In this document: one piece after another, positions 8,913-64,000 of the stretch
Layout: the number at the start of each line of letters is the position of its first letter
How positions within the stretch are numbered: position 1 is the first letter of the stretch
Assembly: GCF_009914755.1 (NCBI RefSeq)
Contig: NC_060925.1
DNA: 64,000 nt
Reading direction: 5' to 3' (one strand)
Source of the DNA: the human T2T-CHM13v2.0 reference genome, Homo sapiens
Notes under the pieces: generated by a model
The model's database searches: none
Told to the model about the DNA's origin: nothing
What the model saw: only the letters and a program-made list of their open reading frames with translations
Translations under genes and position numbers: made by a program

Positions 8913-9037
8913 CTGTGTCATAACACACGATAAGTCTTCCACTGTGATCGCCCACACTCTGTGGCTCAAACTCCACTTCCAGTTGCATGGACTCTCCCAC
9001 ATTAAGAGTTCCAATAGCTGGTTCTATAGAGAAAGGC
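8913..9037 (-). CDS. HYDIN2: HYDIN-type coding exon (exon 7 equivalent, 125 nt): (R)PFSIEPAIGTLNVGESMQLEVEFEPQSVGDHSGRLIVCYDT(G)
   Basis: Acceptor CTCTCTGTGTGTTGCAG|GCC and donor ACAG|GTATGC; ORF 8758..9063; in frame with the 200-nt exon (AG|G = Arg). Confidence 0.93.
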
Positions 9038-10502
9038 CTGCAACACACAGAGAGGCACATCATCAGAGCATATTTCTGACTAGTGTGAGATGGGGAGGAA
9101 AGGAGACAGGAGTTCTAGTTCTGCAGACAGCTCAGACCCAGCACTGCAATTTCATGATCTAGAAGTGAAGTAGACTTTTGCTACGTAATGTGAAAGAACT
9201 TTAGTTTTAACGTTAAAATGACAGCATTAGATTAGCAATCGTAAGGGCAACTTAAACAATGCAACAATATTCTTGTTTGTGTCCTTGCCATTCAGCCCTG
9301 CTTTTAACATTCATTGAGTATCCCCGCTGGGCTCAGGCACTCAAGTTAGGGTGACTGCAAATGAATAAAATCCAGCCTTTGTCCTCAAACACTGAGATTG
9401 CTGTAAGGAACAGACTTAAAATATGTATGCAAATATTGTCATTTTCAAAAGAACAGTGCCTTCAAAGGGATAAAAATCGAGTTTTGCGAGAGTTCACAGG
9501 AGAGAGGGCATCATAGTGGAAAAATATATCTGAGCCCCAAAAGGAAAGGGATAGCACCCTCACTTGCCTTAGGATAATTCAGGACAGATGAACAGAGGGT
9601 CTATATTAAAAGGGTGGGAGGGGTGTAGAGGAACTACAGGAGATGATGCAATAGCCCAGGTGGTAACAGTAGCGCTGCCACAAAAGAGCCATGGAGAGAA
9701 GGCATGGTTTTTAAAACCGCAAGGAGAGGCCTAAGAGAAGGCTGCCTTATGGGGAGCAAGGAGACGTAGCCAAGGGAGACAGCAGCCCAGGTGGTCTCCC
9801 GGGGAAGACAATGGGGAAAAAATATCCTGACCTCACATCCCCTCCCATCTCATTGTCTACCAGACCCTCACTGGGTGAACACAACCAGAGCCAGAAATGC
9901 GAGTCGAGGGCTGTTGACCCAGGCTGTAGAAGCCAGCCTCCGGGGCTAGAGCAAACTGAAGAAGGGTGGAGAGTGCATTTGAAAAGGCAAACTGAGGACA
10001 AATTCTGTGTCTTGAAAATATAATTTGGGATGCAGACATTGTGGGGAGTGAGGGTTGATTTGGAAACAGGAAATAGTTTAATTGTTTTGGAAGAGAATAG
10101 TAAGAGGGAAGCTGGATCTGATGGTGAAATACCTTAAATAACTTAGAGAGTTCTTCCTAAATAGGAAACCCAGCCCATTTAATTATTTTCATGGTCCATT
10201 TCACTTCTTTAAATTGCTAGTTTTTCAAAGTAATGTGTTGTGTAATGCATCTGGCAGACCGAGCTGTTTCTGATTATTTACTTCGATCACAACAGTTCTT
10301 AGAGCTGTCATTCCTTAAATCTTCCCTTAGATGATGAACTCAGTTTCAGAAAATCTAAGCTTTCTGCTATAAGGATACAGAGTTTATGTCAGGGGTAGCA
10401 CTGGGTGGCATCTGAGAGTATTACTACAGGACCTCAGGTGCTCCCTACTGTGAGCAATTGGTTATTTTCTCTGGTACTTTCTACTTGATCTCCTCTCTTT
10501 TC

Positions 10503-10898
10503 TTTTTTTAAGTTTAAAAAAAAATTTACTTTTTGTGGGTACACAGTAGGTATATATATTTATGGGGTACGTGAGATGTTTTGATACAGGCATGCACTGT
10601 GAAGTAATCCCATCATGGAGAATGCATATCCATCCCCTCAAGCATTTGTCCTTTGTGTTACAAACAATCCAATTACACTCTTTTAGCTATTTTAAAATGT
10701 ACAATTAAGTTATTGACTATAGTAACCTTGTTGTGCTATCAAATAGTCTTATTCATTTTTTCTAACTATTTTTTAATACCCATTAACCTTCCCCAACTCC
10801 CCACCCAACCCCCACTACCCTTCCCACCTCCAGTAACCATTCTACTCTCTATGTCCGTGAGTTCAATTGTTTTGATTTTTAGATCCCATGAATAAGTG
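10503..10898 (-). mobile_element. L1MA-like 3' end fragment
   Basis: GTGTTACAAACAATCCAATTACACTCTTTTAG; TSD GATCTCCTCTC at 10487-10497 and 10899-10909. Confidence 0.88.
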
Positions 10899-11012
10899 GA
10901 TCTCCTCTCCTTTCACTTCCTGATTTTCCTGCTTCCTTTCCTTTTTCCTGTCCCCATACCTGTAGCACTGATTCACCAGTGAACCCCAGGCATTGCTGCA
11001 GAGGCACTCTGG

Positions 11013-11240
11013 GGCAGTGGTTACTAGCCTGACCTCTGGAGCCAACCGAATGAGTTCAAAACCCAGCTCTGCCACAACCTTGGGCAAGTCACCTAACCTT
11101 CAGTTTCCTTATCTGTAAAAGGAGGGTAATGATAGCACCTACTTCATATGGTTATAGTGAGGATTAAAGGGGTTGATATAGGTCAAGTGCTTAGAATAAT
11201 GCCTGGCACAAAGGAAATGCTGTACAAGTGTTTATTATTC
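11013..11240 (+). mobile_element. MIR
   Basis: CCCAGCTCTGCCAC..CCTTGGGCAAGTCACCTAACC..CAGTTTCCTTATCTGTAAAA. Confidence 0.85.
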
Positions 11241-14200
11241 TTTTTGTTATGGCTATTTTTATCTCCCTCACTGGCAGCCTCTAGATGCTGTGTGATGAAT
11301 CTGTGGATGTGTTTGGGTGTTTCGATGAGTTCAAGCTTTTATCATTCCCCCCTCACTCCTTCACACTGCTCTAGAGAGAGTGTAAAAAACACACACAGGT
11401 CATAACACATCAATCTCTTGTTCAAACACCTTCAGCGGTCCTCATCACCTGTGCAATCAAGTTCAAACTCCTAGGCATTTCAGGTCCCACACAATCTGCT
11501 CCCAGTAGGTTTTTGCATTTTCATTACACACATACATCTGTCCAAATATCCTATACACCTGTCATGTTCCAAGGCAGTGCTGGGGTGGGATGGGAGGCAG
11601 GCTTTAGTCTCTTCACCCACAACCTCCCCCAGCACTGCACCTGCTTTCTCTTCCCACCAGAATGTGGCCCCCACATAGACAATCGGAACTGCTAGGATCA
11701 CATCAGGTGACTTGCCATTTCCCACATGCCATACTCCTTCTGAAGCCACCTCTCACAGCCCAGACTCAAAGTCACCTCTTAAATAGAATCTTTCCTGATT
11801 CTCCCTTTTGTGAATAGTATCTCTTTCCTCTCAGAGACTATAACTTCCCTTTTAGTTTATACAGTGGTTTACTTTGTACTTGAGTTGGTTTTCATGCCTG
11901 CCTCTCTCAATAGCTAGAAACTCTTGAGAAGAGAGGGAAGGGAAAACACAATCACGAGTCATCTTTGTGTCACTCATCACCCCATACATGGTTCTTTACT
12001 CAGGAGCCTCTCAGAAGAGGTTCTTAATTGAATTACAATAAACTCTTAAAGGTAAATAAAAATATTTGTAATCAACTATCAGTGTTTATGACATCGTGGT
12101 GGAATGAGAAGGAGCAAACCTTCAGTAGAATCTGTGCCTTGTGGGAAGTGACGGTGAGTCTCCCAGTCTCAAAGTTTCTTCCTTCCTTACGGCCTCAGTG
12201 AGAATCGGAAGAAGTGAGAACTGGGCCCAGTTTCCCGGCTTTAGGAACAACACCACCATATTTACTTCTATCCTTTGCCTCCCTACTTCCTAATATTTTT
12301 CTTCCTGCATTGTACTTTCATTTTATTTTCAAATATTTCTTGGTAGCAAAAGAATAGTTTTAAAATGAATTGGATATTATTATATTGCAGTACCTAAACT
12401 ATTAATAATTTTTACAGAAAAAGTGATACTAGTATCCCATCTGTAAGACCTCCAGGAATCCAAGTTCCACGGAGTGGTAAGGGTTACTTTGCCTTTGTGC
12501 TAATCGTTGGGTTTAGGTTACACAAACTTCTTCAGTAGTTATAATCACCTGGGATTGCCATTGCTACTTACAGCTGCCTAACAGATGTTAATTGGGTAGA
12601 GTGTGTTAAGTTCTGGTGGTTACACATTGTCTATAATTTGATTTTGTACTTCATTTTACTAAAATGCAGACAGGCTGAACGGGCTAGAAAATATCAAGTA
12701 TCAGAAAATGCTCTTACAAAGAAGTAAAAGGTGTTGTTCTTCAAGGGTATAAGGATGGTTCAGTCTATCAAAATATTTGGTTTTGATATCATATCTTGAT
12801 TAATATCAAACAATTATGGAGGGAGTTTGGTTTTGTGAAAAATCATGAGCCATGAGAAAGATTTGAGTTTTTGTTCCATCAATTATGAGCTCTTCTTAAG
12901 AACTAAAACCATCCAAATGATTCAATATTTTAGCAGAAGACTAAATATGGATCCTACAATATTAAATATTGAATATAATATTAGTATTTATTCTTCAGAT
13001 GATCTTTCTTGTTTAATTCCTTACTTGAGTTTTTAGATTTTGAAATTGCTTCTTAATCCTCTCTATTTCACCTTCCAATGTTAATCCTACTTTAATCATC
13101 AAAGTTATTCTGATACCTACTAGAGTTTTAGGTCAAATTTAACAATAATTGCTTATGTTCTCTGTACATTTTATAGCCCATTGCAGCCTCTTTTGTTAGT
13201 GTAAAATTATTATGCTTATTTTATAGCAGTTGGAGAATGTGTTTTATTTTATTTTATTGTAGAGGTTTATAGTTGTAGTTTTGCCTTTGTGATATATTGT
13301 TGGTTAGGCATCTTATAAACATTTATTGGGTGTTTATTTATTCTAGACAGATGCTGGGGACATACAAATGAAAAGAGTTAGATACAATCCTTCCATCTGA
13401 GAAGCTCACATTCGAATAAGGGTAACAGACATGCAAAGAAAGTTTTAGTTTTTGTGATTTATAAGAACCTAAGCATTTTATAAACTTAACCACTAATAAA
13501 ATCATTATTTCAACGAGAAAAGGATGATCTGTTTTTTTAAACAATTTCCTGTGGGACATTATTTCTAGCTGTATATTGACACTAAAAGTGGGAGGACCAT
13601 GGGCTTTTGACTCCAAATTCTCAAACTATATCCGCTGCTCTACCATGTCTATTAACAACCATATTAACTGAAGAACACTGTCTAGGAACAGAAACATCTG
13701 TGTGGTTTTTAGAACGGATCCTTGTCAGGGGATCTCCTTAGAGATTCTAACTCAATATGATGTGACCACAAATTCAACCACATTCTTTCTCATTGAAGCC
13801 ATCAGCGTTCTCAGTTGCAAACAACAGAAGCCAGCTGTGGCTAATTTAAACAGAAAAGGGACTGACTGGAAGGACTTGAGGCAATTCACAGAATCAATGA
13901 TAGTTGAAAAACATGCATTTTGTGGAGAAAACATAAAGCCATTATTTCATGAAGAGTCTAAACAGGAAAACAAAAATATTTGCAAACAGGGAATTTGAGA
14001 GACTTGGTTACACAGAAGATGGGAGAGGTGAGAACTCCAACTGAAGAAGGTGAGACAGCTCCGAGATTCATAACAGCGGTAAGCTTTTTCCACCCCTGGA
14101 CTGGAAGCAAAAGGAGAGGAGGAAGTGTTATCAGATCCTGGGGACCAGGGTCACCTGGCAGAAGTTAGAACCGTGGCAGGCCAGCCTGACAGTGGCTAGA

Positions 14201-14560
14201 ACCATGGAGGAGGTGCAGTGGTGGCTGGGGACTCTGCTGAAGACAAAGAGGGAAGAGGCTTCTTCCTTCTTCCTACTCTCCAGTCTCCTGCTAGTGTCCC
14301 TGACTGGTCAAACCTAGCTGGAATCTGGCTGAGCCAGGAGGCTAGGAAGGCTCAGGAAGCCCCACAGGGACACTGAGCAGCAGCGCAGGGGAATGGTGAG
14401 ACATGTACCTGAGGGCAAACAAGCCCAGAGCTAGCCCATGTTTGCACGAATCCAGGTTTTGATGTTAACTTCCTGGGGGAGTTTGGGTAAGTCATTTAAC
14501 TCCTCAGGCTTTACTCCCTTCACAGTAAAATGGCAATGCTGGGCCAGCATGTCTACTGTT

Positions 14561-14624
14561 GACAAATCCTGACCAGTCCCTGAGTTGCCTCCGACAAATC
14601 CTGGCCAGTCCCTGAGTTGCCTCC
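14561..14624. repeat. 32-bp tandem duplication (2 copies, 1 mismatch)
   Basis: GACAAATCCTGACCAGTCCCTGAGTTGCCTCC / GACAAATCCTGGCCAGTCCCTGAGTTGCCTCC. Confidence 0.95.
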
Positions 14625-14864
14625 CATTTTACCTTAGAATTGTTTCTATATTAGGAAAACATAATTCATATTCATAGGTAGATGGATAGAAAGATTTTAT
14701 ATTTTTTTTGCAACTTCACACTATTAAATCTGTGAAGTGATTTTTGCTTCACATTTACATGAATCTAAAATATACGAAATTGCCATTTTGGCGTGGTTTT
14801 TTTCAAATTCAGCCAAACAGCGCAGGAAGATATGTTCCCGCACTTGCATATCCACCTTAGGTAG

Positions 14865-15272
<408 letters not shown>

Positions 15273-15459
15273 AAGATGGGTTATTTCTAATTCATGGGAA
15301 GCCAGCTGAACAACCTGTTTCCTTCTCCTCCATCAAAATATGTGAGGTTTGCCATGAGACGACAAACAAGGCCTGTAGAGAATTTATGACCAATGTCTGG
15401 AGACACTGAGTTCCAAAAGAACTTTTCCTTTGCCTTTAGTGGTTGATTTATTTAAGGTG

Positions 15460-16960
15460 GTTTAGAATCTTGCTTCTACCTAGAATGCAGAAAGCTGGAA
15501 AGAATGTTTCTTTTACCCTAACCATAAGAAAAAGTGAAATAAATAACAAAATCACAACCTTTCTTGTGCCTGTCAGAGAGCAGAGGTAGCACATCAAATA
15601 GCCTGAAATCTAAAGACAGACCAACCCATTTCCCCCGAGGGGGATGGGATATGCACATACGGTTTAGACTGTGGCTTTCGCCTGTGGCAGGCAGAACTTT
15701 CCTGCAAGCAGAAGAAAAAGTGAAAGAGGATAGAACAAAAAAAAAATTTGGAGAGATAATAGCTGAGATTTTCCAAAATTAATGAAAGATTCAGGAAGCT
15801 CAGAGAACCTCAAGCAAAATTAAAACCCAAACCAAGCAAAAGCAAAACAAAATCTTTAAAACAAAAAGCAAAACATAAACAAAACTTACACCTAGACACA
15901 TCATTTCCAAACTGCAAAAACCAAATAAATCAGCAAGTAGCCCAAGAAAAAGAGACAATTACATACAGAGGAACAAAGATAAGAATCACAGCAGACTTCT
16001 CATTAGAAAAATGTAAGTCAAAGGACAATTGAGTGACATATTTAAAGTACTGAGGAAAAAAATCTATATATAATTGTTAGCCCAGAATTCTATATGGTGA
16101 AAAAAAAAATCTTCCAAAAATGAAGGAAAAATAAACACTTTTTTCCAGATAAACAAAAACAGGGAATTTACAGTAGACTTGTGCTACAAGAAATATTAAA
16201 GGTAGTTTTAAGCCAGGAGAAATAGGATATCAGACAGAAATGTGGATCTACACGAAATAGTTCAGAGAGAGTGATTCACCTAGAGTACTTGGAGAAATAA
16301 ACACAAATTCCCTCCCAAAGGATGTGCCCTCAACTGGCAATATGGCAGTGCTGCTACCCACAGTATGGCAAAGTGGGTCACTTGAAAACCCTCCCACCAG
16401 AAAATACCTAGAAAGACTGGATAAAAGATAATGTAAATAAATGCATAACTGAGCATGCACAAAAATAAGAAAAACTCATACCATTCCAAAACAAAGAGGA
16501 ACCTAAGAACCACAGCAGTAAGCCACTGAGCTAATGATAGGACTGCCCTGGGTTCCCAGTAGCCCAGAAGCCTGGGTTTTTAATAGCCCTGCTGGAGCCG
16601 GAGACAAGGCCTCACAATGGTCAAGTTAGGGGACTGGTACCAGATCCCCGTATAAACCTGAGAAATGTGAAGGACTCCCCAAACACACTCCCATCAGCAA
16701 AAGAAAAAGTGTGTATCTGAGTTTTTAATTAAAGGAACAAAGTTTCTCTAGGACATTCATAACTTGAACTTGTGTCTTATGAAGGTGTGGGATTTGCATA
16801 TGAGCTATCAGTCCAGGAACTCCTAAGGCAGGAAATTACCAAAAGAGTACTCCATGGTAGCCTAACTTTTGGGAATCAAGTAGAAGCAAATTCTAATCCC
16901 TTTTGGACAAATGAGTCATTAAGTCAGCAAAGGATGCCACAGATAATGCCCTTCTGAAAG
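15460..16960 (+). mobile_element. Old L1 5'/ORF1 remnants
   Basis: ORF1-like motifs (GATAATAGCTGAGATTTTCCAAAATTAATGAAAG, ACACCTAGACACATCAT, AGCAGACTTCTCA). Confidence 0.7.
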
Positions 16961-17050
16961 AGAACTTAAATCCAGTATATACACACTACTTTTTAAAAAC
17001 AGAACTTAAATCCAGTATATACATACCACTTTTTATAGAAAAGAACTTGA
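16961..17050. repeat. 40-bp tandem repeat (2 copies plus a partial)
   Basis: AGAACTTAAATCCAGTATATACA..ACTTTTTA at 16961 and 17001; AGAACTT again at ~17042. Confidence 0.9.
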
Positions 17051-17196
17051 ACCCCTGCTTCCTGTCTTCCCAAGCTGGTTGTTCTTTTTAAGACCCCACT
17101 GGTCAGCCACTTGCTCTCATGCCCCAAAACAAATCCTTCTTTCCCATCTTATAAGAGAGGTCCTTGAGAGATGGGGTTGTTTCATCATTCTTATAC

Positions 17197-17717
17197 CAGC
17201 AGTCCCCAACCTTTTTGGCACCAGAGACTAGTTTCATGGAAGGCAATTTTTCCACAGATTGGGGGTGGGGTGGATATTTTCAGGATGATTCAAGCACATT
17301 ACATTTATTGCACACATTATTTCTATCTTATTACATTGTAATATATAATGAAATGATTACACAACTCACCATAATGTAGATCAGTGGAAGCCCTGAGCTT
17401 GTTTTCCTGCAACTAGACGTTCCCATCTGGGGGTGATGGGAGACAGTGACAGATCACTGGGCATTAGGAGCATGCAACCTAGATCTCTTACACGCACAGT
17501 TCACAATAGGGTGTGTGCTCCTATGAGAATCTAATGCCGCGGCTGATCTGACAGGAGGCGGAGCTCAGGCGGTAACGCAAGTGATGGGGAGCAGCTGTAA
17601 ATACAGATAAAGCTTTGCTCTCTTGTCCACCACTCACCTCCTGCTGTGCAGCCTGATTCCTAAAAGGCCACGGACTGGACCGGTACCAGTTCATGGCCTG
17701 GGGGTTGGGGACACCTG
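17197..17717 (+). mobile_element. MER1A (hAT-Charlie) non-autonomous DNA transposon
   Basis: TIRs CAGCAGTCCCCAACC / GGTTGGGGACACCTG; near 8-bp TSD TCTTATAC/CTTTATAC; ~520 bp. Confidence 0.9.
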
Positions 17718-17859
17718 CTTTATACTGTCCCATGGTGTCTACACTGTGGTTAGTCCACAAATACTCAGATTAAAATCCAGCTCTATCACTTACTAGCTCT
17801 GTGCTCTTCAGGAAATGATGTGACCTCTCTATCCCTCAGTTTTCTCATCCTCCAAAGCC

Positions 17860-18487
17860 AGCAACAGCAGATTGAGTCCCTCTCACAGCGCACCACGCTG
17901 AACTCTTCTGCTTCCTTCTTCTATTTTTAAAAGCCCTTGTTGGTTACACTGGGCTCATCCAGTGAATCCAGGATTATCTCCCAATTTTAACATTAGCTGA
18001 TCAGCAAATTTAATTATATCTGCAATATTAATTCCCCTTTGCCATACAACATGATACAGTCACAGGTTCTGGGGATTAGGATATGGACATGTCTGGAGAG
18101 CCATCATTCTGTCTACCACACTGGCCATAGCTCATTTGAAGGAAAAAGAAAAGAGCAAACACCGATTATATAGCACTTGATATATACCAGCAGTTTCTGT
18201 TGATTATCCCAACAACCTTATGAAGTGGCTGGTATACTTTTCCCCATTTTTCAGAGAAGAAAACTGAGGGCCATGAGCCAAGGAATGTGGGCGGCCCCTA
18301 GAAACTGGAAAAGGCAAAGAAATGTACTCTCCCCTCAAGCCTCCAGAAGGGAATGCAGCCCTGCTCTCACTTTGATTTTAGCCCAGTGCAACTTCTGACC
18401 CACTGAAAAGTAAGATAATAAATTTGTGTTGTTTTAAGCTACTGAGTTTGTGATAATTTGTTACAATGGCAACAGAAAACTAATCAA
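17860..18487. mobile_element. MLT1 (MaLR) LTR fragments in both orientations, plus MIR
   Basis: CACAGGTTCTGGGGATTAGGATATGGACAT and AAGATAATAAATTTGTGTTGTTTTAAGC..GAAAACTAAT. Confidence 0.7.
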
Positions 18488-18812
18488 GCCAGTTATAAAA
18501 ATTCTCAGTCAAGACAAATTTATTTCTATATTCTCATGGGCCATTCTCTGTACTAAAAGAAGGACTTTTATCCAGCATTTTGAAGAACCAAAAAGAGGAT
18601 TTAGTATAATATGGATATAAGATATTAAACCTTGAATTTTTGTTTCCTCTGAGGATGAAGAGGAAGTCTACCCTACATCAGTGAGGTCTCCCAGCTTTGC
18701 AACTGAAGACTGTAACAAGCAATTCCACCCCCCAATGTTATGGTAGCAAATTACTTGAGCTGACTAGATTTAGCTATAATCAATCAAAAACAAGAGCTAA
18801 AGGCATGCATAC

Positions 18813-19012
18813 CTACAAGTTTTGATGTGAAATACAGCATTTTTGTTGCCAATGTTTCGTACCAGCAGAATCTTCTGGGTGCTGTATTTGACAGGACAAG
18901 TGGAAAAATTCAGCTTGTCAGGAAAATCGAGAATGGCTCGTGCCCCTCTAGCTTTGATGGGTACAATAAACTTTTCTCTTTCAGTAACACAGGTCAACGT
19001 ATGGGCGTAATC
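18813..19012 (-). CDS. HYDIN2: HYDIN-type coding exon (exon 6 equivalent, 200 nt): DYAHTLTCVTEREKFIVPIKARGARAILDFPDKLNFSTCPVKYSTQKILLVRNIGNKNAVFHIKTC(R)
   Basis: Acceptor CCCTTCCCTTGTAG|GAT and donor TGTAG|GTATGC; open frame in ORF 18797..18997; peptide recognised as the HYDIN N-terminal region; phase joins the next exon. Confidence 0.93.
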
Positions 19013-19179
19013 CTACAAGGGAAGGGTATGATCATTATTTGTGGAAAAAGCAACATGATCACGATAACTGTTCAAGAAAAGGGTCGATGAGAGGCATTTT
19101 GCAAAACAACTTTTAGTATAGTTCTATGAAAACATCTTAAAACAATTACAGAAGTACTTTCAAATGAGATTGTCTTTTC

Positions 19180-19204
19180 TGAGAGAGAGAGAGAGAGAGA
19201 GAGA
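19180..19204. repeat. (GA)n microsatellite
   Basis: Direct reading. Confidence 0.95.
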
Positions 19205-19392
19205 ACAGATCTAGTGTTAAAACCTACAGCTGGTAGAGAAGCTATGCTTCATGTGTCTGTCAGGCAATAGGGAGGTAGGATGAAGGTCAGTGGAAGGCCA
19301 GGCCCATTTCTCCCGTAGATCCAAGAAGATTCACAACAGTTCCCTCAGGTCCTCCTTCCAAACCCCACTTCTCCTTCAAGCCCATGTATTAG

Positions 19393-19700
<308 letters not shown>

Positions 19701-19709
19701 GATGTTTCT

Positions 19710-22820: not shown

Positions 22821-22874
22821 AAAGGAATAAATAGGATTCAAGAAATTGATTAAAACTGGGTTGCTAGTATATTT

Positions 22875-49859: not shown

Positions 49860-50010
49860 TTATTATTGTTAGTTATCATTATTCCTGTTTGCAGAAAAGG
49901 AAACTGAGGCTTAAAGAGGTTAAAAGGACTTACCCAAAGTGTCAAAGTTGGTAAATGGCAGAGCTGGAATTCAAAGAGTCTGATTCCAAAGTCTATATAG
50001 TCCGGCGTGA
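49860..50010 (-). mobile_element. MIR
   Basis: GGAAACTGAGGCTTAAAGAGGTTAA..GGCAGAGCTGGAATTCAAA. Confidence 0.8.
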
Positions 50011-53000: not shown

Positions 53001-53649
53001 CCTGTACTTTATATCCAGCGTACAAAAACTGAAGCAACAGGCTCATTTGGTATCAGTAAAGGTCAGTTAAAATTATAGAGACATTTTTTGGAGCAAATCT
53101 CCAGTCTTGTATTTGCATATTTATGAACTAGAGATTAAGATAGGCCATTCCACTTATTAGAGCAGTGCTGCTATAGTTAATAGTCTGTCAGCATTTCCAT
53201 TATAAACCCCATTTTTCAGTGTTTAGTATCTCAGCTGTTAGAAATTACATCAGGCTGAAAAGTGGTCTTCAGCATCTCAGGCCTTGGCAGGGTGAGCCGG
53301 TGGTGGTGGTGGTGATGGGGCTTGGGAAACCAACAAAGACATTTAAATCAAGCCAACTGTTTTTACATTGGATATTAACAGTAAATATGAAATCAGAGAT
53401 TTTGAGGGGAGTTGGTGAATTCTTCTCCTCCCTCAACACCCCCCCACCAAATTATCTTTCCCCTGTCTTATCCTTGTCAGTATCAGGGCTTTCACTCTCT
53501 ATTTAAAGGGAAGACTCTGGGATTTTAGGGCAAAGATCCAAAGTTTTGGCTTGGCAAAATAGTTTTCCTCACTTCACTGGAATTGTGGGGGTAGGGGAGA
53601 GCATCAGAGTAAAGCAAAGATGTTGAAGACATTCATTCATTCATTCATT

Positions 53650-54015
53650 CATAAAGAATTGGCTCATGCAATCATGGAGGCTGGTAAGTCCAAAATCTGC
53701 AGGTTAGGTGGGCAGGCTGGAGACTCAGGGAAGAGCTGATGTTGCAGTTTGAGTCCAAAGGCAGTCTGCTGGCAGAATTTCCTCTTCCTCAGTGGAGATC
53801 AGCCTTTTCCTTATGACCTTCAACTGATTGGATGAGGTCCATTCACATTATGGCACATAAAATTAACCATCACAGAGGCTAAGCTGCTTTACTCAGTCTA
53901 TGATTTAAATGTTAATCTCTTCTAAAAAATACCTTTGCAGCAATATCCAGACATCTTTGACCAAATATCTGGGTACCAGGGCCTAGCCAAGTCGCACATA
54001 AAATTAACCATTGCA
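53650..54015 (-). mobile_element. MLT2 (ERVL) LTR fragment
   Basis: AAGAATTGGCTCATGCAATCATGGAGGCTGGTAAGTCCAAAATCTGCAGG..CACATAAAATTAACCAT. Confidence 0.8.
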
Positions 54016-54787
54016 GGGACCATGTTTTAAAGATCTCCTATACATCAAATCCTGGGCTTGGCCTTGGAGACACAAAATTAATGACACACTCCTTGTCCTC
54101 AAGAAACTTATGATCTACCATCACACTGGTACCAAGTTTTCACAATAAAATTACAGACTCAATAGCTGGTTCCATGCTTTGCTTTCTCTTTTTGGCCACT
54201 TGGGATATCCCCTGCACAGAGGCACAATTGTGAGTGTGCTTAGCTGCATTCTCAAGAGAAGGCACTGCTATCTAGGGACTCCTTATCACATAGGAAGACA
54301 GCCTGCTCTTTCCAAACCAAATTCTTGTAAATTCACTGGACACTAACCTGTCAAGTAACTCAGTGATATTCAAAGATCCTTTGGGATTTGAGGAGAAATT
54401 GGAAAAAGAGAAAAGAGGAAGCAGCTTGCTTTCTCAAGTCATTCATTCAAAAAAAAAATGAGTATTGGCTCCTGTTATATGGCTCCTCGATGTGTTTTAG
54501 AAACCACACAAACACATCCTCAACTGGACAACCATAGAGCAGGTTGAAAAATTCCTACTCTACCTGGCGGAGTTTCCAGCCCCTCTGCAGAAGTGCACAC
54601 CTATGCAAAAACCTTCATCAGAAGAGAACCTTAAGGGATAGTCTGACAGTAGGGAATCCCAATGTGTATAACCAGTGGTCCTTGCTATCTGACTCCGAGA
54701 GCTACACTGAGTAATAGAAGCAACTCTCCTTGCCCTGTCTTCTAGGTTTCTATTATACTTGGAGTAGGTAAGCTTTATTTTATTTGC

Positions 54788-54892
54788 TCAAGATATGTCA
54801 CACCCCTGGACACACAGAATAAAAATTCAAAGTCCTCCTGGAATTCAAGATGTGTCATACCCCTGGACACACAGAATAAAAATTCAAAGTCC
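54788..54892. repeat. 48-bp direct duplication, period 57 bp, 2 mismatches
   Basis: TCAAGAT.TGTCA.ACCCCTGGACACACAGAATAAAAATTCAAAGTCC at 54788 and 54845. Confidence 0.95.
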
Positions 54893-55120
54893 GACTAGAG
54901 AGGCAGAGAATATCATCACTGTATCACTCCATTTTACTTTATTGAAAACCTTAAAAGTAAATATAAAACGACAAATTACGGTGCTGCTATTGTTGCTTGC
55001 TGTCTGGGAAAAAAAGAAATGTTGGATAAGAAGGTCAAAATGTGCCAATTCAATGCCCTGAGAATGGTCACCTAATCTTCTATCAAGAGATGTGACATAC
55101 CATCTAAAGAACGGCTGCCC

Positions 55121-55438
<318 letters not shown>

Positions 55439-56586
55439 TCAATGCCTAGGAGCTTGACTCTGCTTTACTTCTGCCCTTTCGATTCTCTGTGAAATGAACA
55501 GGACTTATGTAATTGCTTTCAGCAGCATCTTTGAATTACAATTACATAATAAGACACACACCAGGATGTGTGTAATTGTGTAATAACAGCATGCCTCACT
55601 GTGCTAGGTTGGTGGCCAATAACCACTTAGTCATGCTATTATATTATAAGAACATATGCCCTCAAGGCATGTTGAAATTATTCTGGGGATCTCTAAAGGA
55701 AAGCTGACTGATCAAAAGAGAACCCCAACTTAAAAAGCTATAAAATAAATAATTTTTAAAAATCTGATAGTAATCCCAACAAGAAACAAAAAAATTACAC
55801 CTACCCTAAAAACAAACAAACAAAAAACCTGTAGTGTAAAATCAAAATCAAAGTGTTGTGTAATGATTCACTTACGTCACCACAGGATTTAAGATGACAG
55901 AGTGTTAATAAGGAAAAAACAAGAAGCTGGCCAGAAGTCAGGTGTTGTGATGCCCTCTTCATAGTTGGTCAGCGTGAAGACTACAGAGGAGTTATGTCTC
56001 AACCCAGAAAGTTCTAGCTTCTTTGGAGCCTACTCCTTCCCAAGAAAATGACACCCCAAAGGCTCTATAAACTTTCCACACTTTGAACTTTTGTGTTGTT
56101 CTCATAGTCATCAGATCAAAAAATAATCTCAGAAATGTGAGATCAGACTTTTGCAGTTGAATCTCCCCAATGATATTTTCCTTACAGTGAAAGTATGTGC
56201 TAGGATAAATTGCCCACACTTTATTCTTACAGCACAAGATACGTATATGTTATATATATAGTATGTGTACATACGTTTCAATACCTAATTTTTCTGTATA
56301 TGCAAACTACATTTCCATCTCTTCCACTCTTCTAACTCATTTGGCAGGAAAAAAACCTCATGCAACAAAAATAAGGCAGTATGAGATGAGGGGAGAGGTG
56401 GGAGAGATACTTTTGCAATTTATAAAATATTAGTTTGTCACTTCTTAGATAAGGCTGTATCAATACAAGTTATAATATCGAGGTAAACATAAATGTATAT
56501 GTGTAATATACTTGTAATTCACAATTGATGTTTTGTTTTTTCCTTATGCAATTAGAACCTTAAAATATAGAAGTTTTGATCATTAC

Positions 56587-57660
<1,074 letters not shown>

Positions 57661-59644
57661 CATTTATTACATTATTATATCAACTGCACATTTATTACAT
57701 CAACAAACTTTTTTTTAAACAATGCTGAGTATAAGTAATGAGAATATAATGGAGAGGAAAACAAGGTCCATGTTGTTTTAGGGCTTATAGTCCACCAAAA
57801 AATAATTTTGACAGGACATGCATAGGAAAGGCAGCAAATATAGTTGTGGGTTTTAATCCATTACGTATGTGGCATTTCCAAAATACCATATGTAAGCTGA
57901 TTTTAAATATTTTCAGTGATCTTAAAGGACATCAACTGAGTATTTCAGTCACCTTAACAACCAAAAGTATTCAATGATTCAACAAATGACCTGCAACTAA
58001 TGACTCAATCTAAACCCAATCTAAACCTCCATTGAGTTAAATTTGAGGAAGTACCTACAAAATTATTGTTACCTCTCTGCAGGGTGCTGGACTGGCTCTC
58101 ACCCACTTCAATTATGCACATCTCTTCCCAACTTCATGTTCAGTCATACCAGATGAGTTGTTTGAAATCAGCACCCTTCACACTGCCCACTGAAGGCTCC
58201 ACTTCAAGTCTGCCCTCCTCTGGAGCCTTTTGTTAAATCTTTGCCAGCACACCATTCGTCAGGGTGCACCCCCATCAACAAGACAGCTTAAAGACATTTA
58301 GAAAGCAAAACCATGACAGAAAATGTCAAAGGGGAAGAGAGGAATATACAAATATGGAAATAAAATAATAAAGTGGAAGATTCTGATGTATTAAGCCAGA
58401 GCAGCAGTTCTCAAATGTTATGGCCTATATCCAAATCACCCAGAGATGTAGGGTGGGGCCAGGGAATTGAATTTCTAACAAGTTTCCTGGCTATCCCACT
58501 GCACTGGACCATCGGTATGGCTTTTTCTCCTAACACCAGTTCGTCTCCTGTGCTTACCACCTGGTTGAGGAGGGGTGGAAGTGCATGGCAGGTGTGGCTA
58601 ATGCCATTGGATTGGCAGCTCTTGGTAAAGGAAATCGATGGCCATGTATAAACAATGTTTAAGCTGAAGTCCAGTGAAATGGTCCCTGGGGACCCACAAG
58701 CTGCTCACAGCCAGGAAGGCAGCACTGCCCAATGTTGCCCCCACCATGGAAGAAAAAGCATGCCAAACACCTTCATCTAGCCCTGAAGGTATTTTCACTA
58801 GGCCTATGTAGAAGGTAGTTTGGCTAAAACAGCTTCAGTTGGCATATGCAGAAAGACACAATCTTAGAGCCACAGTGAATTATTTGTTTGGAAGGCAGGA
58901 CCCTATTAAGACACTGGATGTTGCCTTATCCATATCTGGATCACCACAATGCAAACCATGCCCCTGGAGACAGAAATCTACAAGCCACAAAGACAGGGAG
59001 AAAGCTAACATGACATTACTGGGAAGGTGAGCATACAGTAATTAGATCTCACAAAATAAGGATGATAGAAGAATTCCATTGTGTTCACATTTCTTACCCT
59101 CTGTAATGTTGAAGATCTGAAATTTGGTTGTAAATACATTGGTAACTTTTTTGTCCAAATTACATTCCCAAGAAACAGATAAAAACTGAACACAGGTTGA
59201 AGTTTGGCTGTTTTATAAGTATGCAGTTACTGAAAGCACTGGTGATAACACTGTCAGAAGTGAAAAATTATAGATGATTAATAAGAAATCGTTGAAAGAA
59301 ATGGTTCTTGCCAAACAAAACATCAATGAGATTGAAAACAATTTTCATTGACAAAACATGTGCCTGTTGGGCATTCCAGAGGAGTGTGATGAGAATAAAT
59401 TTGACTGAACCTTTAAAAGAGTTTTTACTTGTTGGGTCAGATCTTTCTGCTAAATCCCTCAGTGTCAAAATGCTGTTTTGCCTTTCCTACCTGCTCTGGG
59501 CATACTCCGTCACAAACTACGTTGTGTGAATCTGAGGACTGCTTTAGAAATGAGTTCCCAAATTGCTCAAGAAATAGTTCAGGCTGTAATTCTGAAAAGC
59601 CTTCTGCTCACTCAGGTCCTGTGGGGGGAGTTTAGCCAATAAAG

Positions 59645-59672
59645 GAAAGAAAGAAAGAAAGAAAGAAAGAAA
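59645..59672. repeat. (GAAA)n microsatellite
   Basis: Direct reading. Confidence 0.9.
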
Positions 59673-60084
59673 TTAAACTCTTTCAAAAGCAAACTTTGGA
59701 ACCATGACAAACATGGAAGCCATGTGTATACCATGCTGTCAGCATTTCCTGAAGAAGCTGTGTGTGGGCTTCAGGGAGGGCTCTGGGATGATAATCTGGA
59801 AATGATGAAGAATTCTTTTATGTATTTTATTGTAGTACAGGTCTAATAAAAGCTAAGTATTATAAATGTTAATGGTGCATTAATTGTAAGTTAAAACAAT
59901 AATTTGATACTATTTTTCCAACCACAAATTGGCAAAAAAATTTAAAAGTGGTAATGAAATAGGAAAATGGGTGAACACTCAAATACAGTTTGTGGAAATA
60001 TAAATTGATAGAACCTTTTTCAGGGACAACTTGGCAGTATCTATCAAGATTCCAAATATACCTATCCTATGAGGAAGCAGAATG

Positions 60085-60315
60085 CATATGAGTTAAGGAC
60101 AGACTGGATTCAGAGATCCTGGATTCCAATCCTGGCTCTACCAATTAGAACCATGAGATCTCAAACAAGTTGCTTAACCTCTCTGAGCCTAAGTTTATCA
60201 TCTGCAAAACTGAGATAATAATAGTATCTATAACTCATGGGGTTGTCATGGGAATTTTAAAAGTTGATATTTGTAAAGTGTTTACACTGGTGCCTGGCAT
60301 ATAGGAAGTGCCTAG
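60085..60315 (+). mobile_element. MIR
   Basis: AATCCTGGCTCTACCA..CAAGTTGCTTAACCTCTCTGAGCCT. Confidence 0.8.
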
Positions 60316-60499
60316 AACCCTAATTCAAGGAAAACATTCTATAAAACTTCTAGCCAAATGTCTAAGTTCAATACAACATGGTTTCTCACAACATATAAAT
60401 GGAAACTAACTCTAGAGGTCCAACACTGAGAAAATATGCAAATAAATGCTAGTTCATCAGCGTGATTGAATAGTTTATAGCCCTTTAAAGAATAAGGTA

Positions 60500-60808
60500 G
60501 GCTGGGCGCGGTGGCTCACGCCTGTAATCCCAACACTGTGAGGCCGAGGCGGGTGGATCATGAGGTCAGGAGATTGAGACCATCCTGGCTAACACGGTGA
60601 AACCCTGTCTCTACTAAAAAATAGAAAAAATTAGCCGGGTGTGGTGGAGGGCGTCTGTAGTCCCAGCTACTTGTGAGGCTGAGGTGAGGCAGGAGAATGG
60701 CGTGAACCTGGGAGGCAGAGCTTGCAGTGAGCCAAGATTGTGCCACTGCACTCCAGCCTGGGTGACAAAGTGAGACTCCGTCTCAAAAAAAAAAAAAAAA
60801 AAAAAAAA
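60500..60808 (+). mobile_element. AluY-like
   Basis: CATCCTGGCTAACACGG, GGAGAATGGCGTGAACC, GAGCTTGCAG; TSD AAGAATAAGGTA / AAGAGTGAGGTA. Confidence 0.92.
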
Positions 60809-61979
60809 GAGTGAGGTACAGCTCTGTGTACCCCAAGAACAACGTATTGCTGAGTACAAAAACAAATTGTAAAACAGCATGTTCAGTAGAATCTCATTAT
60901 TATAAAAGTGAAGTTTGTGTGTGTGTGTGTGTGTATGTGTACCTGAAAAGATATATACCATACTTACCAGTGATCACCTCTGAGGAGTGAGATTAGAGCA
61001 GCGAAGAGACTTCCAATTCTTACTTTATACACTTCTGTATTGTTTGAACCTTTGAAAATGAACATAAATTACTTTTTAATTAAAAAAGCTTTTAAATCAC
61101 TAGTCTGAGCATAGTTTAGATTTAAATAATTATTCTTTCTCTCTCTCTTTTTTTTTTTAAAGATTCAGATTCATAGCCATGCGATGAATGCTACTGTTAT
61201 CATTGACATAGATGACCAGCCCGGAAATAAGATTGTATGAATAGTCCATTTAGTTAAATGTTTCGGCCACTTAGATCTATGTGAATGTGAGCATAAAATG
61301 TGGAAACACTTAGGAAATAAGCTTTCATTGTATAGTATAATAGGGGGTAATGAGATTTGGTCAATCTGTCAGAGATTTAAACCTACCCGATCCTAAAGAA
61401 AAATAGGCCTAAAATATTTCAAATGTGAGGTTATATTAAAAGCCACAGTTTCAAACTGTGAAGCTAAAGAAATCAGTTGTTTCAGTTTATTGTCTCAGGG
61501 AAAGCACAGTGTAATACCTGAAGGACTTGAAAGAGAACCAAAAGGAGGGGTAGCATTCCCAGCAGCTAGCACTTTCATCCAATGCCAGGGCTTTCATTGG
61601 CCAAATTATTTTCAAAGATACTGCCTGACCGAAGCACTTCTGCAATAAAAGTATCTCTGTGTTAGTCAATGGAATGGGGGAATGTTAAAATTGAAAGAGG
61701 CCTTTGAGACCAGCTAGGTCAGTGTCCACATTTCACAGAAGAGGACACTGAGTTCTGGAAAGATCACGGGACTTCGTAACAAAAACAAACTACAGCTCAG
61801 GTCAACTGACCATCAGTATAGTATGCCTTCTAATACACTACTGTCCTCGCACTTTTTGTATTTTAATGTAATGGTTTTAAAATGCACATGGGAAAAATAA
61901 ATATAAACTATAATATAGAACACAAAAGCTCCCAGAGAAGAGTTTACTTCCTATTCTTGTACTCCAAGTCCCAGTTCCT

Positions 61980-62023
61980 CTCCTCAGATATGACCACTAT
62001 GCTCCTCAGATATGACCACTGTG
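61980..62023. repeat. 22-bp tandem duplication
   Basis: CTCCTCAGATATGACCACTATG / CTCCTCAGATATGACCACTGTG. Confidence 0.9.
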
Positions 62024-62024
62024 C

Positions 62025-62335
62025 TTTTTGTTTTGTTTTGGTTTTGGTTTTTGAGACGAGTTTCACTCTGTTGCCTAGGCTGGAGTGCAGTGGTGTGATC
62101 GTGGCTCACTGCAGCCTCAACTTCCTGGACTCAAGCGATCCTCCCAGGTCAGCCTCCTGCATAGTTGGGAGTACAGGTGTGCACCACTACGCCCAGCTAA
62201 TTTTTTGTATATTTTTGTAGAGACAGGATTTCACCATGTTGCCCAGGCTGGTCTTGAACTCCTGGGCTCAAGTGATCTACCCACTTCGGCCTCCCGAAGT
62301 GCTGGGATTATACCTGTGAGCCACTGTGCCCAGCC
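62025..62335 (-). mobile_element. AluJ
   Basis: Alu consensus. Confidence 0.92.
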
Positions 62336-62441
62336 TATAACTACTGTCAGCAGTTCCTCTGATAGTCTTTCAGAGATGCTCTATGAACTTCTAAGCAAGT
62401 GTATATATGTGTGCATGCATGTGTGCAGCATATTATATATA

Positions 62442-62875
62442 CAGTTGACCCTTGAACAACATGGGTTTGAACTATGTGGGTCCACCTATACATGGATTCT
62501 TTTCCACCTCTGCCACCCACAAGACAACAAGACCAACCCCTCCTCTTCCTCCTCCTCCTCAGCCTATTCAATGTAAAGATGATGAGGATGAAAACCTTTA
62601 TGATGATCCACTTCCACTTAATGAATAGTAAATGTATTTTCTCTTCCTTATGGTTTCTTAATAACATGTTAACTTACTTTAAGAATATTGTATATAACAC
62701 ATATAACACACAAAATATGTATGTGTTAATTGACCGTGTATGTTATCAGTAAGGCTTCCAATCCACAGTAGGCTATTGATTTTTAAGTTCTGAGGGAGTC
62801 AAAAGTCATATGCAAATTTGCAACTGTGTTGAGGGGGTAGGTGCCCCTAACGACCAATTGTTCAAGGGTCAACTG
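62442..62875 (+). mobile_element. Tigger2a (MER28)-like TcMar DNA transposon
   Basis: TIRs CAGTTGACCCTTGAACAA / TTGTTCAAGGGTCAACTG; TA at left; 434 bp; characteristic (CCT)n stretch. Confidence 0.9.
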
Positions 62876-62879
62876 TCCT

Positions 62880-64000
62880 ATCAAGCTTCTTGTTTATTTC
62901 TTTGTTTTCACTTGAATATATCATGCAAATTATTCCTTATCAATACATGTTAATCTTCTCTCATTCTTTTTAATGGCTGCACATTATTTCATTACATTAT
63001 AATATATTACAATTTATTTCATCAGTCCCATCTCAATAGATATTTAGACCTTTTTGTCTTTTGTATTACAAACATGCTGTTATCAATAAAAAGTACTCAT
63101 ATACACATCTTTAAGCACCTGTCCAAGTATGTGTGGAGTATACATCAGATAAATTATTAGATGTGGAATTTAGCCAAAGAGTATATTTAATTTTGATAAG
63201 CAATGCCAAATTTTTCTCCAAAAAGGTATATTAATTTACACTTCTACAAAGAAAATATAGTCATTATTTAAGTTTTATTTGTGATTTTTTTCTTCACTTA
63301 TTAAATGATAAGTTCCTTGAAGAAAGAAACCATAGCTTCTACAACTTGATTCCAATGCCCATGGCCACACATATCATCATTCTTTAACAAAGATTGAATG
63401 ACCAAAACTGTGCTAAAGACTGAAATACAAAAATAGATATATATTATTTCCTATAGTGGTAGACTAGTTATCTCAGAGTAACCCCTCTGCTGAGAAAAAG
63501 TAAAATGAAATTGGGAAATATATTTTTTGAAAACCCACACCTTCCAAAAGCACCAAATAGTTAATCAAATAAGAAACTGCCCAGTCAAAATCTAGAAAAA
63601 ATGAAGCCCCTATATTAAAATCTGTTTGGCCCTAATGAGATTTGCTTATCTCGAAGAAATAACTGTGAAACTGCATTTGCTTAGGGCAGGTGGGGGTCTT
63701 TCAGGGCAGAGGAAACAAGACTTAAAGCTCAGGGTCCACCTTAGCTTAAGACTCAGATAAACCACCTGCCACTGTAAGGTAGAACCTAGCAAGGTTATCA
63801 CTTCAGGGTAAGGGTAAACCAGAATTAAACCAGTCCTTCAAAAGACTTGCAGCCTAGCTTCTCATCATTTGGCTCTTTTAGGGAACCTGAAGCCTCAAAC
63901 TTAGATTAAGATAGTCCTGCATCAGTAGCACCTCTAGAATCGTGGCAGAAACAAATTAAAATACTCTCTTGTAAGAGGCACTATCATCTTATGTCTCAAA
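62880..64000. mobile_element. Old L1 fragments (antisense 3' piece, then a 5'-like piece)
   Basis: CTCATTCTTTTTAATGGCTGCA..TTAATTTACACTTC; GTGGCAGAAACAAATTAAAATACTCTCT. Confidence 0.6.

What the first reader, a model, noticed from the sequence alone, without database searches (positions are those of the whole stretch)
8913..64000. Headless HYDIN: exons 6-7 with no upstream HYDIN exons, consistent with the 5' fusion boundary of HYDIN2
Seen: two intact in-frame HYDIN exons on the minus strand, then 45 kb upstream in which I recognise no HYDIN coding exon (I looked for the preceding ...FRILFTPEENK exon). Known: HYDIN (16q22) was partially duplicated to 1q21.1 in the human lineage. The copy lacks the first exons and promoter and is transcribed from adopted upstream sequence with more neural expression. 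Inference: the window spans the seam between HYDIN-derived DNA (left ~25 kb) and the unrelated block supplying new 5' exons (right ~39 kb). This is the main biological system here, a gene born by truncation and fusion; it is published, not new.
Basis: partly seen in the sequence, partly recalled or inferred. Interest (0 to 1): 0.8.

Follow-up and report, generated by a model that had tools for sequence, protein, structure and literature searches.

The report
HYDIN2 5' duplication junction, already published

Summary
The observation and the interpretation both hold, and the system is already published (Dougherty et al. 2017, PMC5345166).

- **HYDIN part.** Window 1-24943 is collinear with chromosome 16 HYDIN at 99.33% identity. 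It carries exon 6 (18813-19012, minus strand) and exon 7 (8913-9037, minus strand). Both are open in frame and identical to the chromosome 16 exons.
- **Seam.** Homology to chromosome 16 stops at 24943, inside HYDIN intron 5. The two homologies overlap by 3 bases (AGT, 24941-24943).
- **Flanking part.** Window 24941-64000 is collinear, in inverted orientation, with a chromosome 1 copy at 146.6 Mb (99.8%) and with 1p22.3 at 87.3 Mb (about 94.8%). It has no match on chromosome 16.
- **Missing exons.** The four coding HYDIN exons for residues 1-172 lie on chromosome 16, 6.9-18 kb beyond the break. They are absent from the window at both protein and DNA level.
- **Insertion model.** The uninterrupted chromosome 1 copy shows that a 364,446-base HYDIN segment was inserted with loss of 840 bases, as published.
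- **Fusion exons.** All nine annotated upstream exons in the window have usable splice sites, but they put 12 in-frame stops ahead of exon 6. The first usable ATG is in exon 7.

Three small additions are reported as side notes: a low-divergence tract of about 17 kb, a 788-base stretch found only in HYDIN2, and splice-site differences in the 1p22.3 copy.

The parts
1..24943 (.). HYDIN-derived DNA: the 5' end of the 364-kb duplicated segment. It covers part of intron 7, exon 7, intron 6, exon 6 and the 3' 5.9 kb of intron 5.
   Evidence: Collinear with C16:76955914-76979800 on the same strand. Identity 99.333% (161 mismatches in 24,144 ungapped aligned bases). One search gives the genome-wide hit C16:76973848-76979800 for window 19001-24943.
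8913..9037 (-). HYDIN exon 7
   Evidence: Open in phase 1. AG/GT splice sites. No mismatch to the chromosome 16 exon. Matches PF22544 profile positions 48-88. tblastn against alpaca HYDIN: E 2.4e-18.
8986..8988 (-). First ATG in the HYDIN frame that stays open in the annotated transcript
   Evidence: it is the in-frame ATG in exon 7, with a pyrimidine at -3 and C at +4. Exon 6 has no Met. The 3 earlier in-frame ATGs stop after 11-44 codons. The paper likewise predicts initiation at the exon 7 ATG.
18813..19012 (-). HYDIN exon 6, the first HYDIN exon of HYDIN2
   Evidence: Open in frame 1. AG/GT splice sites. No mismatch to chromosome 16. tblastn E 2.4e-35. 112 of 120 database candidates pass E<=0.001, and most of those that a source names are called HYDIN or hydrocephalus-inducing protein.
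19013..24943 (-). Retained 3' part of HYDIN intron 5 (5,931 bases)
   Evidence: Collinear with chromosome 16 up to C16:76979800. Exon 5 on chromosome 16 lies 6.9 kb further on, at C16:76986737-76986871.
24941..24943 (.). Duplication/insertion junction: 3 bases (AGT) shared by both parental sequences
   Evidence: One search gives a three-way view of the window, chromosome 16 and the chromosome 1 paralogue. The alignment ends overlap at 24941-24943.
24944..64000 (.). Older chromosome 1 duplicon (the '5' exon block', 39 of about 41 kb). It is not HYDIN-derived.
   Evidence: Collinear and inverted with C1:146615481-146576409 (99.795%, 80 mismatches in 39,045) and with C1:87298356-87258609 (94.8% over ungapped bases). 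Exactly three full-length copies genome-wide.
24944..25663 (.). Dispersed repeat of about 720 bases directly at the junction, starting with TG. The paper calls the insertion site an LTR/LINE boundary.
   Evidence: copies at 81% identity on C17 and C8 covering query 144-864. Repeat class was not tested here, because no repeat library was available.
28959..29281 (-). Fusion exon that splices onto HYDIN exon 6 in NR_103556.2
   Evidence: AG acceptor and GTAAGT donor. Same splice dinucleotides in both other copies.
32995..33094 (-). Fusion exon
   Evidence: AG/GT. The 1p22.3 copy reads AC/CT at these sites.
38621..38689 (-). Fusion exon
   Evidence: AG/GT in all three copies.
39599..39630 (-). Fusion exon
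   Evidence: AG/GT in all three copies.
40931..40960 (-). Fusion exon
   Evidence: AG/GT in all three copies.
41530..41651 (-). Fusion exon with a GC donor, inside a masked repeat
   Evidence: AG/GC in all three copies. It lies within the masked stretch 41362-41674 of the hub's table.
49934..50127 (-). Fusion exon
   Evidence: AG/GT. The 1p22.3 copy reads AA/GC.
59491..59618 (-). Fusion exon
   Evidence: AG/GT. The 1p22.3 copy has a GC donor.
60968..61049 (-). Fusion exon
   Evidence: AG/GT. The 1p22.3 copy has TT at the donor.

Best explanation
The window spans the 5' junction of HYDIN2, the human-lineage partial duplicate of the ciliary central-pair gene HYDIN.

A 364-kb piece of 16q22 HYDIN was copied into an older chromosome 1q21 duplicon. 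The piece starts inside intron 5, so it lacks the promoter and exons 1-5. The duplicon itself derives from 1p22.3. The join shows 3 bases of shared sequence and the loss of 840 bases of the target.

Transcription starts further upstream, outside the window. It runs through the duplicon on the minus strand and picks up a chain of short non-coding exons with ordinary splice sites. The last of these (28959-29281) splices onto HYDIN exon 6. These exons carry stops in the HYDIN frame. Any HYDIN-frame protein can therefore start only at the ATG in exon 7 or later, inside an Ig-like domain.

Shown here: the mosaic structure, the junction, the absent exons, the insertion model, the splice sites and the frame analysis. 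Taken from the paper or the annotation: the transcripts, the promoter, the neural expression, the age and the human specificity.
For: Mosaic structure.
- Window 1-24943 is collinear with C16:76955914-76979800 at 99.333%. Window 24941-64000 is collinear and inverted with C1:146.58-146.62 Mb at 99.795% and with C1:87.26-87.30 Mb at 94.8%.
- Genome-wide searches agree. The exon 6 probe finds 2 of 2 scored places, itself and C16. Window 19001-39000 finds C16 only for 19001-24943. The right-part probes find itself plus the two chromosome 1 copies and no other full-length match (40 of 6599 candidates scored; 10 of 10; 40 of 4852).

Junction. It is read base by base.

Missing head.
- The alpaca HYDIN N-terminus (residues 1-172) maps to four chromosome 16 exons at C16:76986737-76998026, all beyond the break. 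It maps nowhere in the window.
- 34.2 kb of chromosome 16 beyond the break gives 130 DNA matches to the window. None of the 130 overlaps those exons, and the 12 best-scoring are repeats of about 300 bases.

Insertion model. The paralogue's sequence continues across the insertion point and reappears at C1:147899820-147902497 from query base 841. 1p22.3 is also contiguous there. This gives a HYDIN segment of 364,446 bases.

Splicing and frame.
- 11 of 11 annotated exons have AG acceptors. 10 of 11 have GT donors and 1 has GC.
- There are 12 in-frame stops upstream of exon 6, and no Met between the last stop and exon 7.

Published account. It matches on exons 6-84, 364 kbp, 99.4% identity, a 41-kb 5' exon block from 1p22.3, loss of 841 bp, a start site 55 kb upstream, the ATG in exon 7, and fusion exons that do not extend the ORF (PMC5345166: abstract, sections 5 and 7).
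Against: Nothing in the sequence speaks against it.

Limits of what was tested:
- Transcription, promoter use and tissue pattern were not testable here.
- Human specificity and the age could not be tested, because no other primate genome was on hand.
- The LTR/LINE nature of the insertion site was not verified. No repeat library was available, and the LINE side shows no recognisable reading frame.
- The paper places the second 1q21 copy 1.1 Mbp telomeric (its Discussion says 2 Mbp). In this assembly it lies 1.65 Mb on the centromere side. This is probably a difference between reference assemblies (see the side notes).
- Window 32301-43199, 48301-57399 and 60451-64000 were compared only with the fetched loci. 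No clean genome-wide search covered them; 32301-39000 was part, where repeat hits crowded out the scored places.
Confidence: 0.97

Rival explanations
1. The window is the ancestral HYDIN gene, or a full copy of it, whose exons 1-5 are diverged or were simply not recognised by eye.
For: None beyond the presence of exons 6-7.
Against: Homology to chromosome 16 ends sharply at 24943. The real exons for residues 1-172 are found on chromosome 16 beyond that point and are absent from the window at protein level and DNA level. The window lies on C1, not C16.
Confidence: 0.003
2. The junction is an assembly artefact: a chimeric join of chromosome 16-like and chromosome 1 reads in a region rich in segmental duplications.
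For: 1q21 is a notoriously hard region. GRCh38 itself may be misassembled nearby (passages of PMC11956922).
Against: An independent study found the same junction architecture by BAC sequencing, including the loss of about 841 bp. It also reported fusion transcripts that cross the junction (PMC5345166). The RefSeq transcript NR_103556.2 has exons on both sides of the junction. The left part differs from chromosome 16 by 0.67%, so it is a distinct locus rather than misplaced chromosome 16 reads.
Confidence: 0.007
3. The order of events was the reverse. A HYDIN copy sat at 1q21 first, and the chromosome 1 duplicon was later brought next to it, rather than HYDIN being inserted into an existing duplicon.
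For: The flank is more similar to its 1q21 paralogue (99.8%) than HYDIN2 is to HYDIN (99.33%). Taken at face value, that dates the flank duplication later. The paper notes the same oddity.
Against: Both the 1q21 paralogue and the 1p22.3 copy are contiguous across the insertion point. The two halves flank the HYDIN segment at C1:147902497 and 148266944 with only 840 bases missing. That is the signature of an insertion into a single pre-existing segment. The high identity is explained at least in part by a tract at about 0.03% divergence, which looks like gene conversion.
Confidence: 0.02

Closest known systems
HYDIN2 (human 1q21.1), as described by Dougherty et al. 2017, Genome Biol 18:49 (PMC5345166)
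   Same: It matches in every structural respect tested: the first HYDIN exon is exon 6, a break in intron 5, 364 kb, about 99.4% identity to HYDIN, a 1p22.3-derived 5' exon block with an inverted 1q21 paralogue, about 841 bp lost at the target, non-coding 5' fusion exons, and the first usable ATG in exon 7.
   Different: This is the same locus in a different assembly. The 1q21 paralogue lies 1.65 Mb on the centromere side here, while the paper has it 1.1 Mbp telomeric. In this window the flank is 99.8% identical to the paralogue, against 99.6% in the paper over the whole duplication.
HYDIN (16q22.2), axonemal central-pair apparatus protein
   Same: Exons 6 and 7 are base-for-base identical to chromosome 16. 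Together they encode one PF22544 Ig-like domain.
   Different: The window lacks the promoter and the exons for residues 1-172. The break falls inside the region that aligns to the first Ig-like domain of the orthologue (about residues 98-195 of P0003).
Other human-specific incomplete duplicates, such as NOTCH2NL, SRGAP2C and ARHGAP11B
   Same: These are also partial gene copies created by recent segmental duplication. NOTCH2NL lies in the same 1q21 region (passages). SRGAP2C and ARHGAP11B are recalled and were not checked here.
   Different: As I recall, those copies keep the parental 5' end and promoter and are truncated at the 3' end. HYDIN2 lost its 5' end and depends on an adopted promoter and exapted exons.

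Membership tests
HYDIN2 5' fusion junction (Dougherty et al. 2017) | Near-identical (about 99.4%), collinear copy of 16q22 HYDIN genomic DNA located on chromosome 1q21 | tested here: met
   99.333% over 24,144 ungapped bases. The window is on C1 at 148.24-148.31 Mb.
HYDIN2 5' fusion junction (Dougherty et al. 2017) | The copy begins with exon 6; exons 1-5 and the promoter are absent | tested here: met
   Residues 1-172 of the orthologue map to four chromosome 16 exons beyond the break and nowhere in the window. None of the 130 DNA matches overlaps those exons. The exon 5 motif is absent from the window. The non-coding exon 1 and the promoter were not located on chromosome 16.
HYDIN2 5' fusion junction (Dougherty et al. 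2017) | The flank is the 1p22.3-derived duplicon, with one further, inversely oriented 1q21 copy | tested here: met
   C1:87.26-87.30 Mb at 94.8% and C1:146.58-146.62 Mb at 99.8%, both in minus orientation. Three copies in all.
HYDIN2 5' fusion junction (Dougherty et al. 2017) | The HYDIN segment bisects a formerly single segment, with loss of 841 bp | tested here: met
   The paralogue's continuation reappears 364 kb away, starting from its base 841.
HYDIN2 5' fusion junction (Dougherty et al. 2017) | The insertion lies at an LTR/LINE boundary | tested here: inconclusive
   The flank starts with a dispersed repeat of about 720 bases. No repeat library was on hand, and no LINE reading frame is recognisable on the other side.
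HYDIN2 5' fusion junction (Dougherty et al. 2017) | Upstream exons from the flank splice onto HYDIN exon 6 and do not extend the ORF | tested here: met
   Splice dinucleotides are canonical for 9 of 9 fusion exons (one is GC-AG). There are 12 in-frame stops. That the transcripts exist rests on the annotation and on the paper.
HYDIN2 5' fusion junction (Dougherty et al. 2017) | New promoter about 55 kb upstream of the breakpoint, with neural-biased expression | not testable with these tools
   The site lies outside the window (annotated 5' end at 80048). No expression data were available here.
HYDIN2 5' fusion junction (Dougherty et al. 2017) | Human-lineage specific, about 3.2 million years old | not testable with these tools
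   No other primate genome was available. The 0.67% divergence is in line with the paper's 0.6%.
HYDIN protein family | HYDIN/CFA65/VesB-like Ig-like domain (PF22544) and close identity to vertebrate HYDIN orthologues | tested here: met
   Scores of 39.1 and 43.3 bits against a cut-off of 25.5. Identity to mammalian HYDIN is 86-97% among the top hits.

The most novel reading that the evidence does not exclude
Some of the non-coding 5' exons of HYDIN2 may have become splice-competent only after the 1p22.3 to 1q21 duplication. In 4 of the 9 in-window fusion exons, the ancestral-locus copy differs from the window at one or both splice dinucleotides. In three of them these are plainly unusable (TT donor, AA acceptor, AC/CT); in the fourth the donor reads GC. 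All 9 are intact in both 1q21 copies.

The exon block may also still be being homogenised between the two 1q21 copies by gene conversion. A tract of about 17 kb covering six of the nine exons shows 0.03% divergence, against 0.33% around it.

If both hold, the 5' leader of HYDIN2 was assembled stepwise from point mutations in a transcriptionally silent duplicon, and it co-evolves with its lncRNA-producing twin.
Probability: 0.4. Interest if true: 0.3.

Novelty: already known. Interest (0 to 1): 0.2.

Why it matters
HYDIN2 is one of the few well-documented cases in the human lineage of a gene that lost its head by incomplete duplication and then acquired a foreign promoter and exons, with a shift of expression towards the brain. 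It lies in the 1q21.1 microdeletion/microduplication region. This window is the physical seam of that event. Confirming it in a complete assembly shows that the scan can recognise such junctions from raw sequence, but it adds nothing of substance to the published account.

Tried and rejected
- **** (genome-wide search with window 1-19000). Repeat hits from one element at 17.2-17.7 kb swamped it, and neither chromosome 16 nor the window itself was listed. I replaced it by fetching the chromosome 16 loci and aligning locally.
- It lists neither the window itself nor the chromosome 1 paralogues, because dispersed-repeat hits around window 34.2-36.4 kb filled the 37 scored candidates. Narrower probes solved this.
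- **** (Tandem Repeats Finder, 4000-9200). It returned 0 rows, so the stretch 4981-5768 that does not align to chromosome 16 is not a tandem-repeat expansion.
- **** (reading frames on the paralogue's side of the insertion point). No long or recognisable frame was found, so I could not confirm that this side is a LINE.
- It failed on a term with an apostrophe and was resent.
- **Left out.** I considered a fold or complex prediction for an exon-7-initiated protein. It would not bear on the finding.
Full report
**1. Observation**

The two exons are real.
- Exon 18813-19012 (minus strand) is open for 66 codons in one frame and closed in the other two.
- Exon 8913-9037 (minus strand) is open for 41 codons in phase 1 only.
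- Both have AG acceptors and GT donors. Their phases fit, so the frame runs on from one to the other.
- Pfam places exon 6 on profile positions 1-42 and exon 7 on positions 48-88 of the HYDIN/CFA65/VesB-like Ig-like domain PF22544, with both scores above the curated cut-off.
- A database search with the exon 6 peptide gave 112 proteins at E<=0.001 among 120 candidates. Most of those that a source names are called HYDIN or hydrocephalus-inducing protein. Mammalian top hits are 86-97% identical.

**2. Where the HYDIN homology ends**

The window is G000:C1:148242001-148306000. I fetched 100 kb of chromosome 16, 50 kb of C1 at 146.6 Mb and 50 kb of C1 at 87.3 Mb and aligned them to the window. The result is a clean two-part mosaic.
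- Window 1-24943 is collinear with C16:76955914-76979800 at 99.333% (161 mismatches in 24,144 ungapped bases).
- Window 24941-64000 is collinear, in inverted orientation, with C1:146615481-146576409 at 99.795% (80 mismatches in 39,045).
- The same right part is collinear with C1:87298356-87258609 at 94.8% over ungapped bases.

Genome-wide searches agree with the local alignments.
- The exon 6 probe has 2 of 2 scored places, itself and C16.
- Window 19001-39000 matches C16 only for 19001-24943.
- Three right-part probes find themselves and the two chromosome 1 copies, with no other full-length match.
- The intervening right-part stretches were compared only with the fetched loci.

Read base by base, the window follows chromosome 16 up to 24943 and follows the chromosome 1 paralogue from 24941. 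The junction therefore carries 3 shared bases, AGT. The word 'microhomology' does not occur in the main text of the paper. Its Figure 1b, which I could not see, shows the breakpoints.

**3. The missing head**

An alpaca HYDIN orthologue with a complete N-terminus (P0003) was run by tblastn.
- In the window it hits only residues 173-239 (exon 6, E 2.4e-35) and 238-281 (exon 7, E 2.4e-18).
- The best hit for residues 1-172 has E 7.5.
- On chromosome 16 the same protein finds four further exons: residues 1-59, 46-91, 87-136 and 128-172, at C16:76986737-76998026.
- All four lie beyond the chromosome 16 breakpoint at 76979800.

It is absent from all six frames of the window.

At DNA level, 34.2 kb of chromosome 16 beyond the break gives 130 matches to the window. 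None of the 130 overlaps those exons, and the 12 best-scoring are repeats of about 300 bases.

The break therefore lies in intron 5, and 5,931 bases of that intron are retained. If exon 1 is non-coding (an inference), the numbering 'exons 6-7' fits the paper's 'exons 6-84'.

**4. Insertion model**

The sequence that follows the junction point in the uninterrupted 1q21 paralogue (C1:146615482 onward) reappears at C1:147899820-147902497 (minus strand), but only from its base 841. The 1p22.3 copy is also contiguous across the point.
- One formerly continuous segment was therefore split by a HYDIN-derived insert spanning C1:147902498-148266943, which is 364,446 bases.
- 840 bases of the target were lost.
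- The paper reports 364 kbp and 841 bp.

**5. How the locus is read**

This step is inferred from the sequence, the annotation and the paper.
- All nine annotated upstream exons in the window have AG acceptors. Eight have GT donors and one (41530-41651) has a GC donor.
- In the annotated splice chain the HYDIN frame meets 12 stops before exon 6. The last stop is 41 codons upstream, with no Met after it.
- Exon 6 has no Met.
- The first in-frame ATG that stays open is at 8988-8986 (minus strand) in exon 7. It has a weak context and is preceded by 19 ATG triplets in the in-window part of the leader.
- It lies at about profile position 64 of 100 of the Ig-like domain. A protein starting there would begin inside a domain.
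- The paper reaches the same conclusions: the ATG in exon 7 or 11, and fusion exons that do not extend the ORF.
- RefSeq calls the gene a transcribed pseudogene.

**6. Comparison with what is known**

This is the published HYDIN2 junction. For PMC5345166 I read the abstract and outline, sections 5 and 7 in full and passages. Every structural feature that I could test was met. The promoter, the expression pattern, the age and the human specificity could not be tested here.

One apparent discrepancy concerns the second 1q21 copy. The paper places it 1.1 Mbp telomeric (its Discussion says 2 Mbp). Here it lies 1.65 Mb towards the centromere. Passages of PMC11956922 state that GRCh38 differs from T2T-CHM13 by an inversion of nearly 2.5 Mbp around NOTCH2NLB that was seen in no other haplotype. 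That probably accounts for the difference, but I did not check that HYDIN2 lies inside that inversion.

**7. Small additions, none of which changes the verdict**

(a) Splice sites in the other copies. The splice dinucleotides of all 9 fusion exons are the same in the 1q21 paralogue. In the 1p22.3 copy only 5 of 9 match the window at both sites: four are AG/GT and one is AG/GC, as in the window. The other four read TT donor, GC donor, AA/GC and AC/CT. The paper notes that there are no transcripts at 1p22.3. The direction of these changes needs an outgroup.

(b) Uneven divergence from the 1q21 paralogue. There are 5 mismatches in 38056-55420 (0.03%), against about 0.33% outside that tract. For bounds 37600-54600 the counts are 8 against 72, binomial p about 1e-10. 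The bounds were chosen after looking at the data, so the p-value is too small. This fits the gene conversion that the paper suspected.

(c) A stretch found only in HYDIN2. Window 4981-5768, flanked by two repeats of about 280 bases that both align to a single chromosome 16 repeat, is absent from chromosome 16. It has no other full-length copy in the genome. The simplest reading is a repeat-mediated deletion in chromosome 16 intron 7 after the duplication. This is not polarised.

**8. Verdict**

The seam moves to 24941-24943. The system is already known, so interest is low.

Noticed in passing
window 4981-5768 (HYDIN2 intron 7): A 788-base stretch is present in HYDIN2 but absent from chromosome 16 HYDIN in this assembly. 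It lies between two masked repeats of about 280 bases (4715-4999 and 5754-6030), and both align to one repeat on chromosome 16. Its only full-length match in the genome is itself. It is probably a repeat-mediated deletion on chromosome 16 after the duplication, so HYDIN2 would preserve ancestral intron sequence. No outgroup was available to confirm this.
   Followed up: partly
window 38056-55420: A tract of about 17 kb has only 5 mismatches to the 1q21 paralogue at C1:146.59 Mb (0.03%), against about 0.33% on either side (the bounds were chosen after looking at the data). It looks like recent gene conversion between the two 1q21 copies, and it covers six of the nine fusion exons.
   Followed up: partly
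window 32995-33094, 49934-50127, 59491-59618, 60968-61049: At four of the nine fusion exons, the ancestral 1p22.3 copy has different dinucleotides at one or both splice sites (AC/CT, AA/GC, GC donor, TT donor). The 1q21 paralogue is the same as the window at all nine. The direction of change is unknown.
   Followed up: partly
window 26713-26834 (+): A 5S rRNA pseudogene scores 48.3 bits in Rfam RF00001 against a gathering score of 38. It lies in a stretch that aligns without a gap of 30 bases or more to both the 1q21 and the 1p22.3 copies. It was therefore probably there before the first duplication of this block.
   Followed up: partly
C1:146576409-146615481 against the window: The inverted 1q21 paralogue of the 5' exon block lies 1.65 Mb on the centromere side of HYDIN2 in this assembly. 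The 2017 paper, working on GRCh38, places it 1.1 Mbp telomeric. Passages of PMC11956922 report an inversion of nearly 2.5 Mbp between GRCh38 and T2T-CHM13 around NOTCH2NLB, which probably explains the difference. I did not verify that HYDIN2 lies within it.
   Followed up: partly
window 34188-36433: A dispersed repeat of about 2.2 kb has many copies genome-wide at 73-82% identity. It dominated the hits. It was not classified.
   Followed up: no
window 41530-41651 (-): This annotated fusion exon uses a GC donor and lies wholly within a masked repeat (41362-41674). It also has a 78% match to a repeat in chromosome 16 intron 5. It appears to be an exonised repeat.
   Followed up: no
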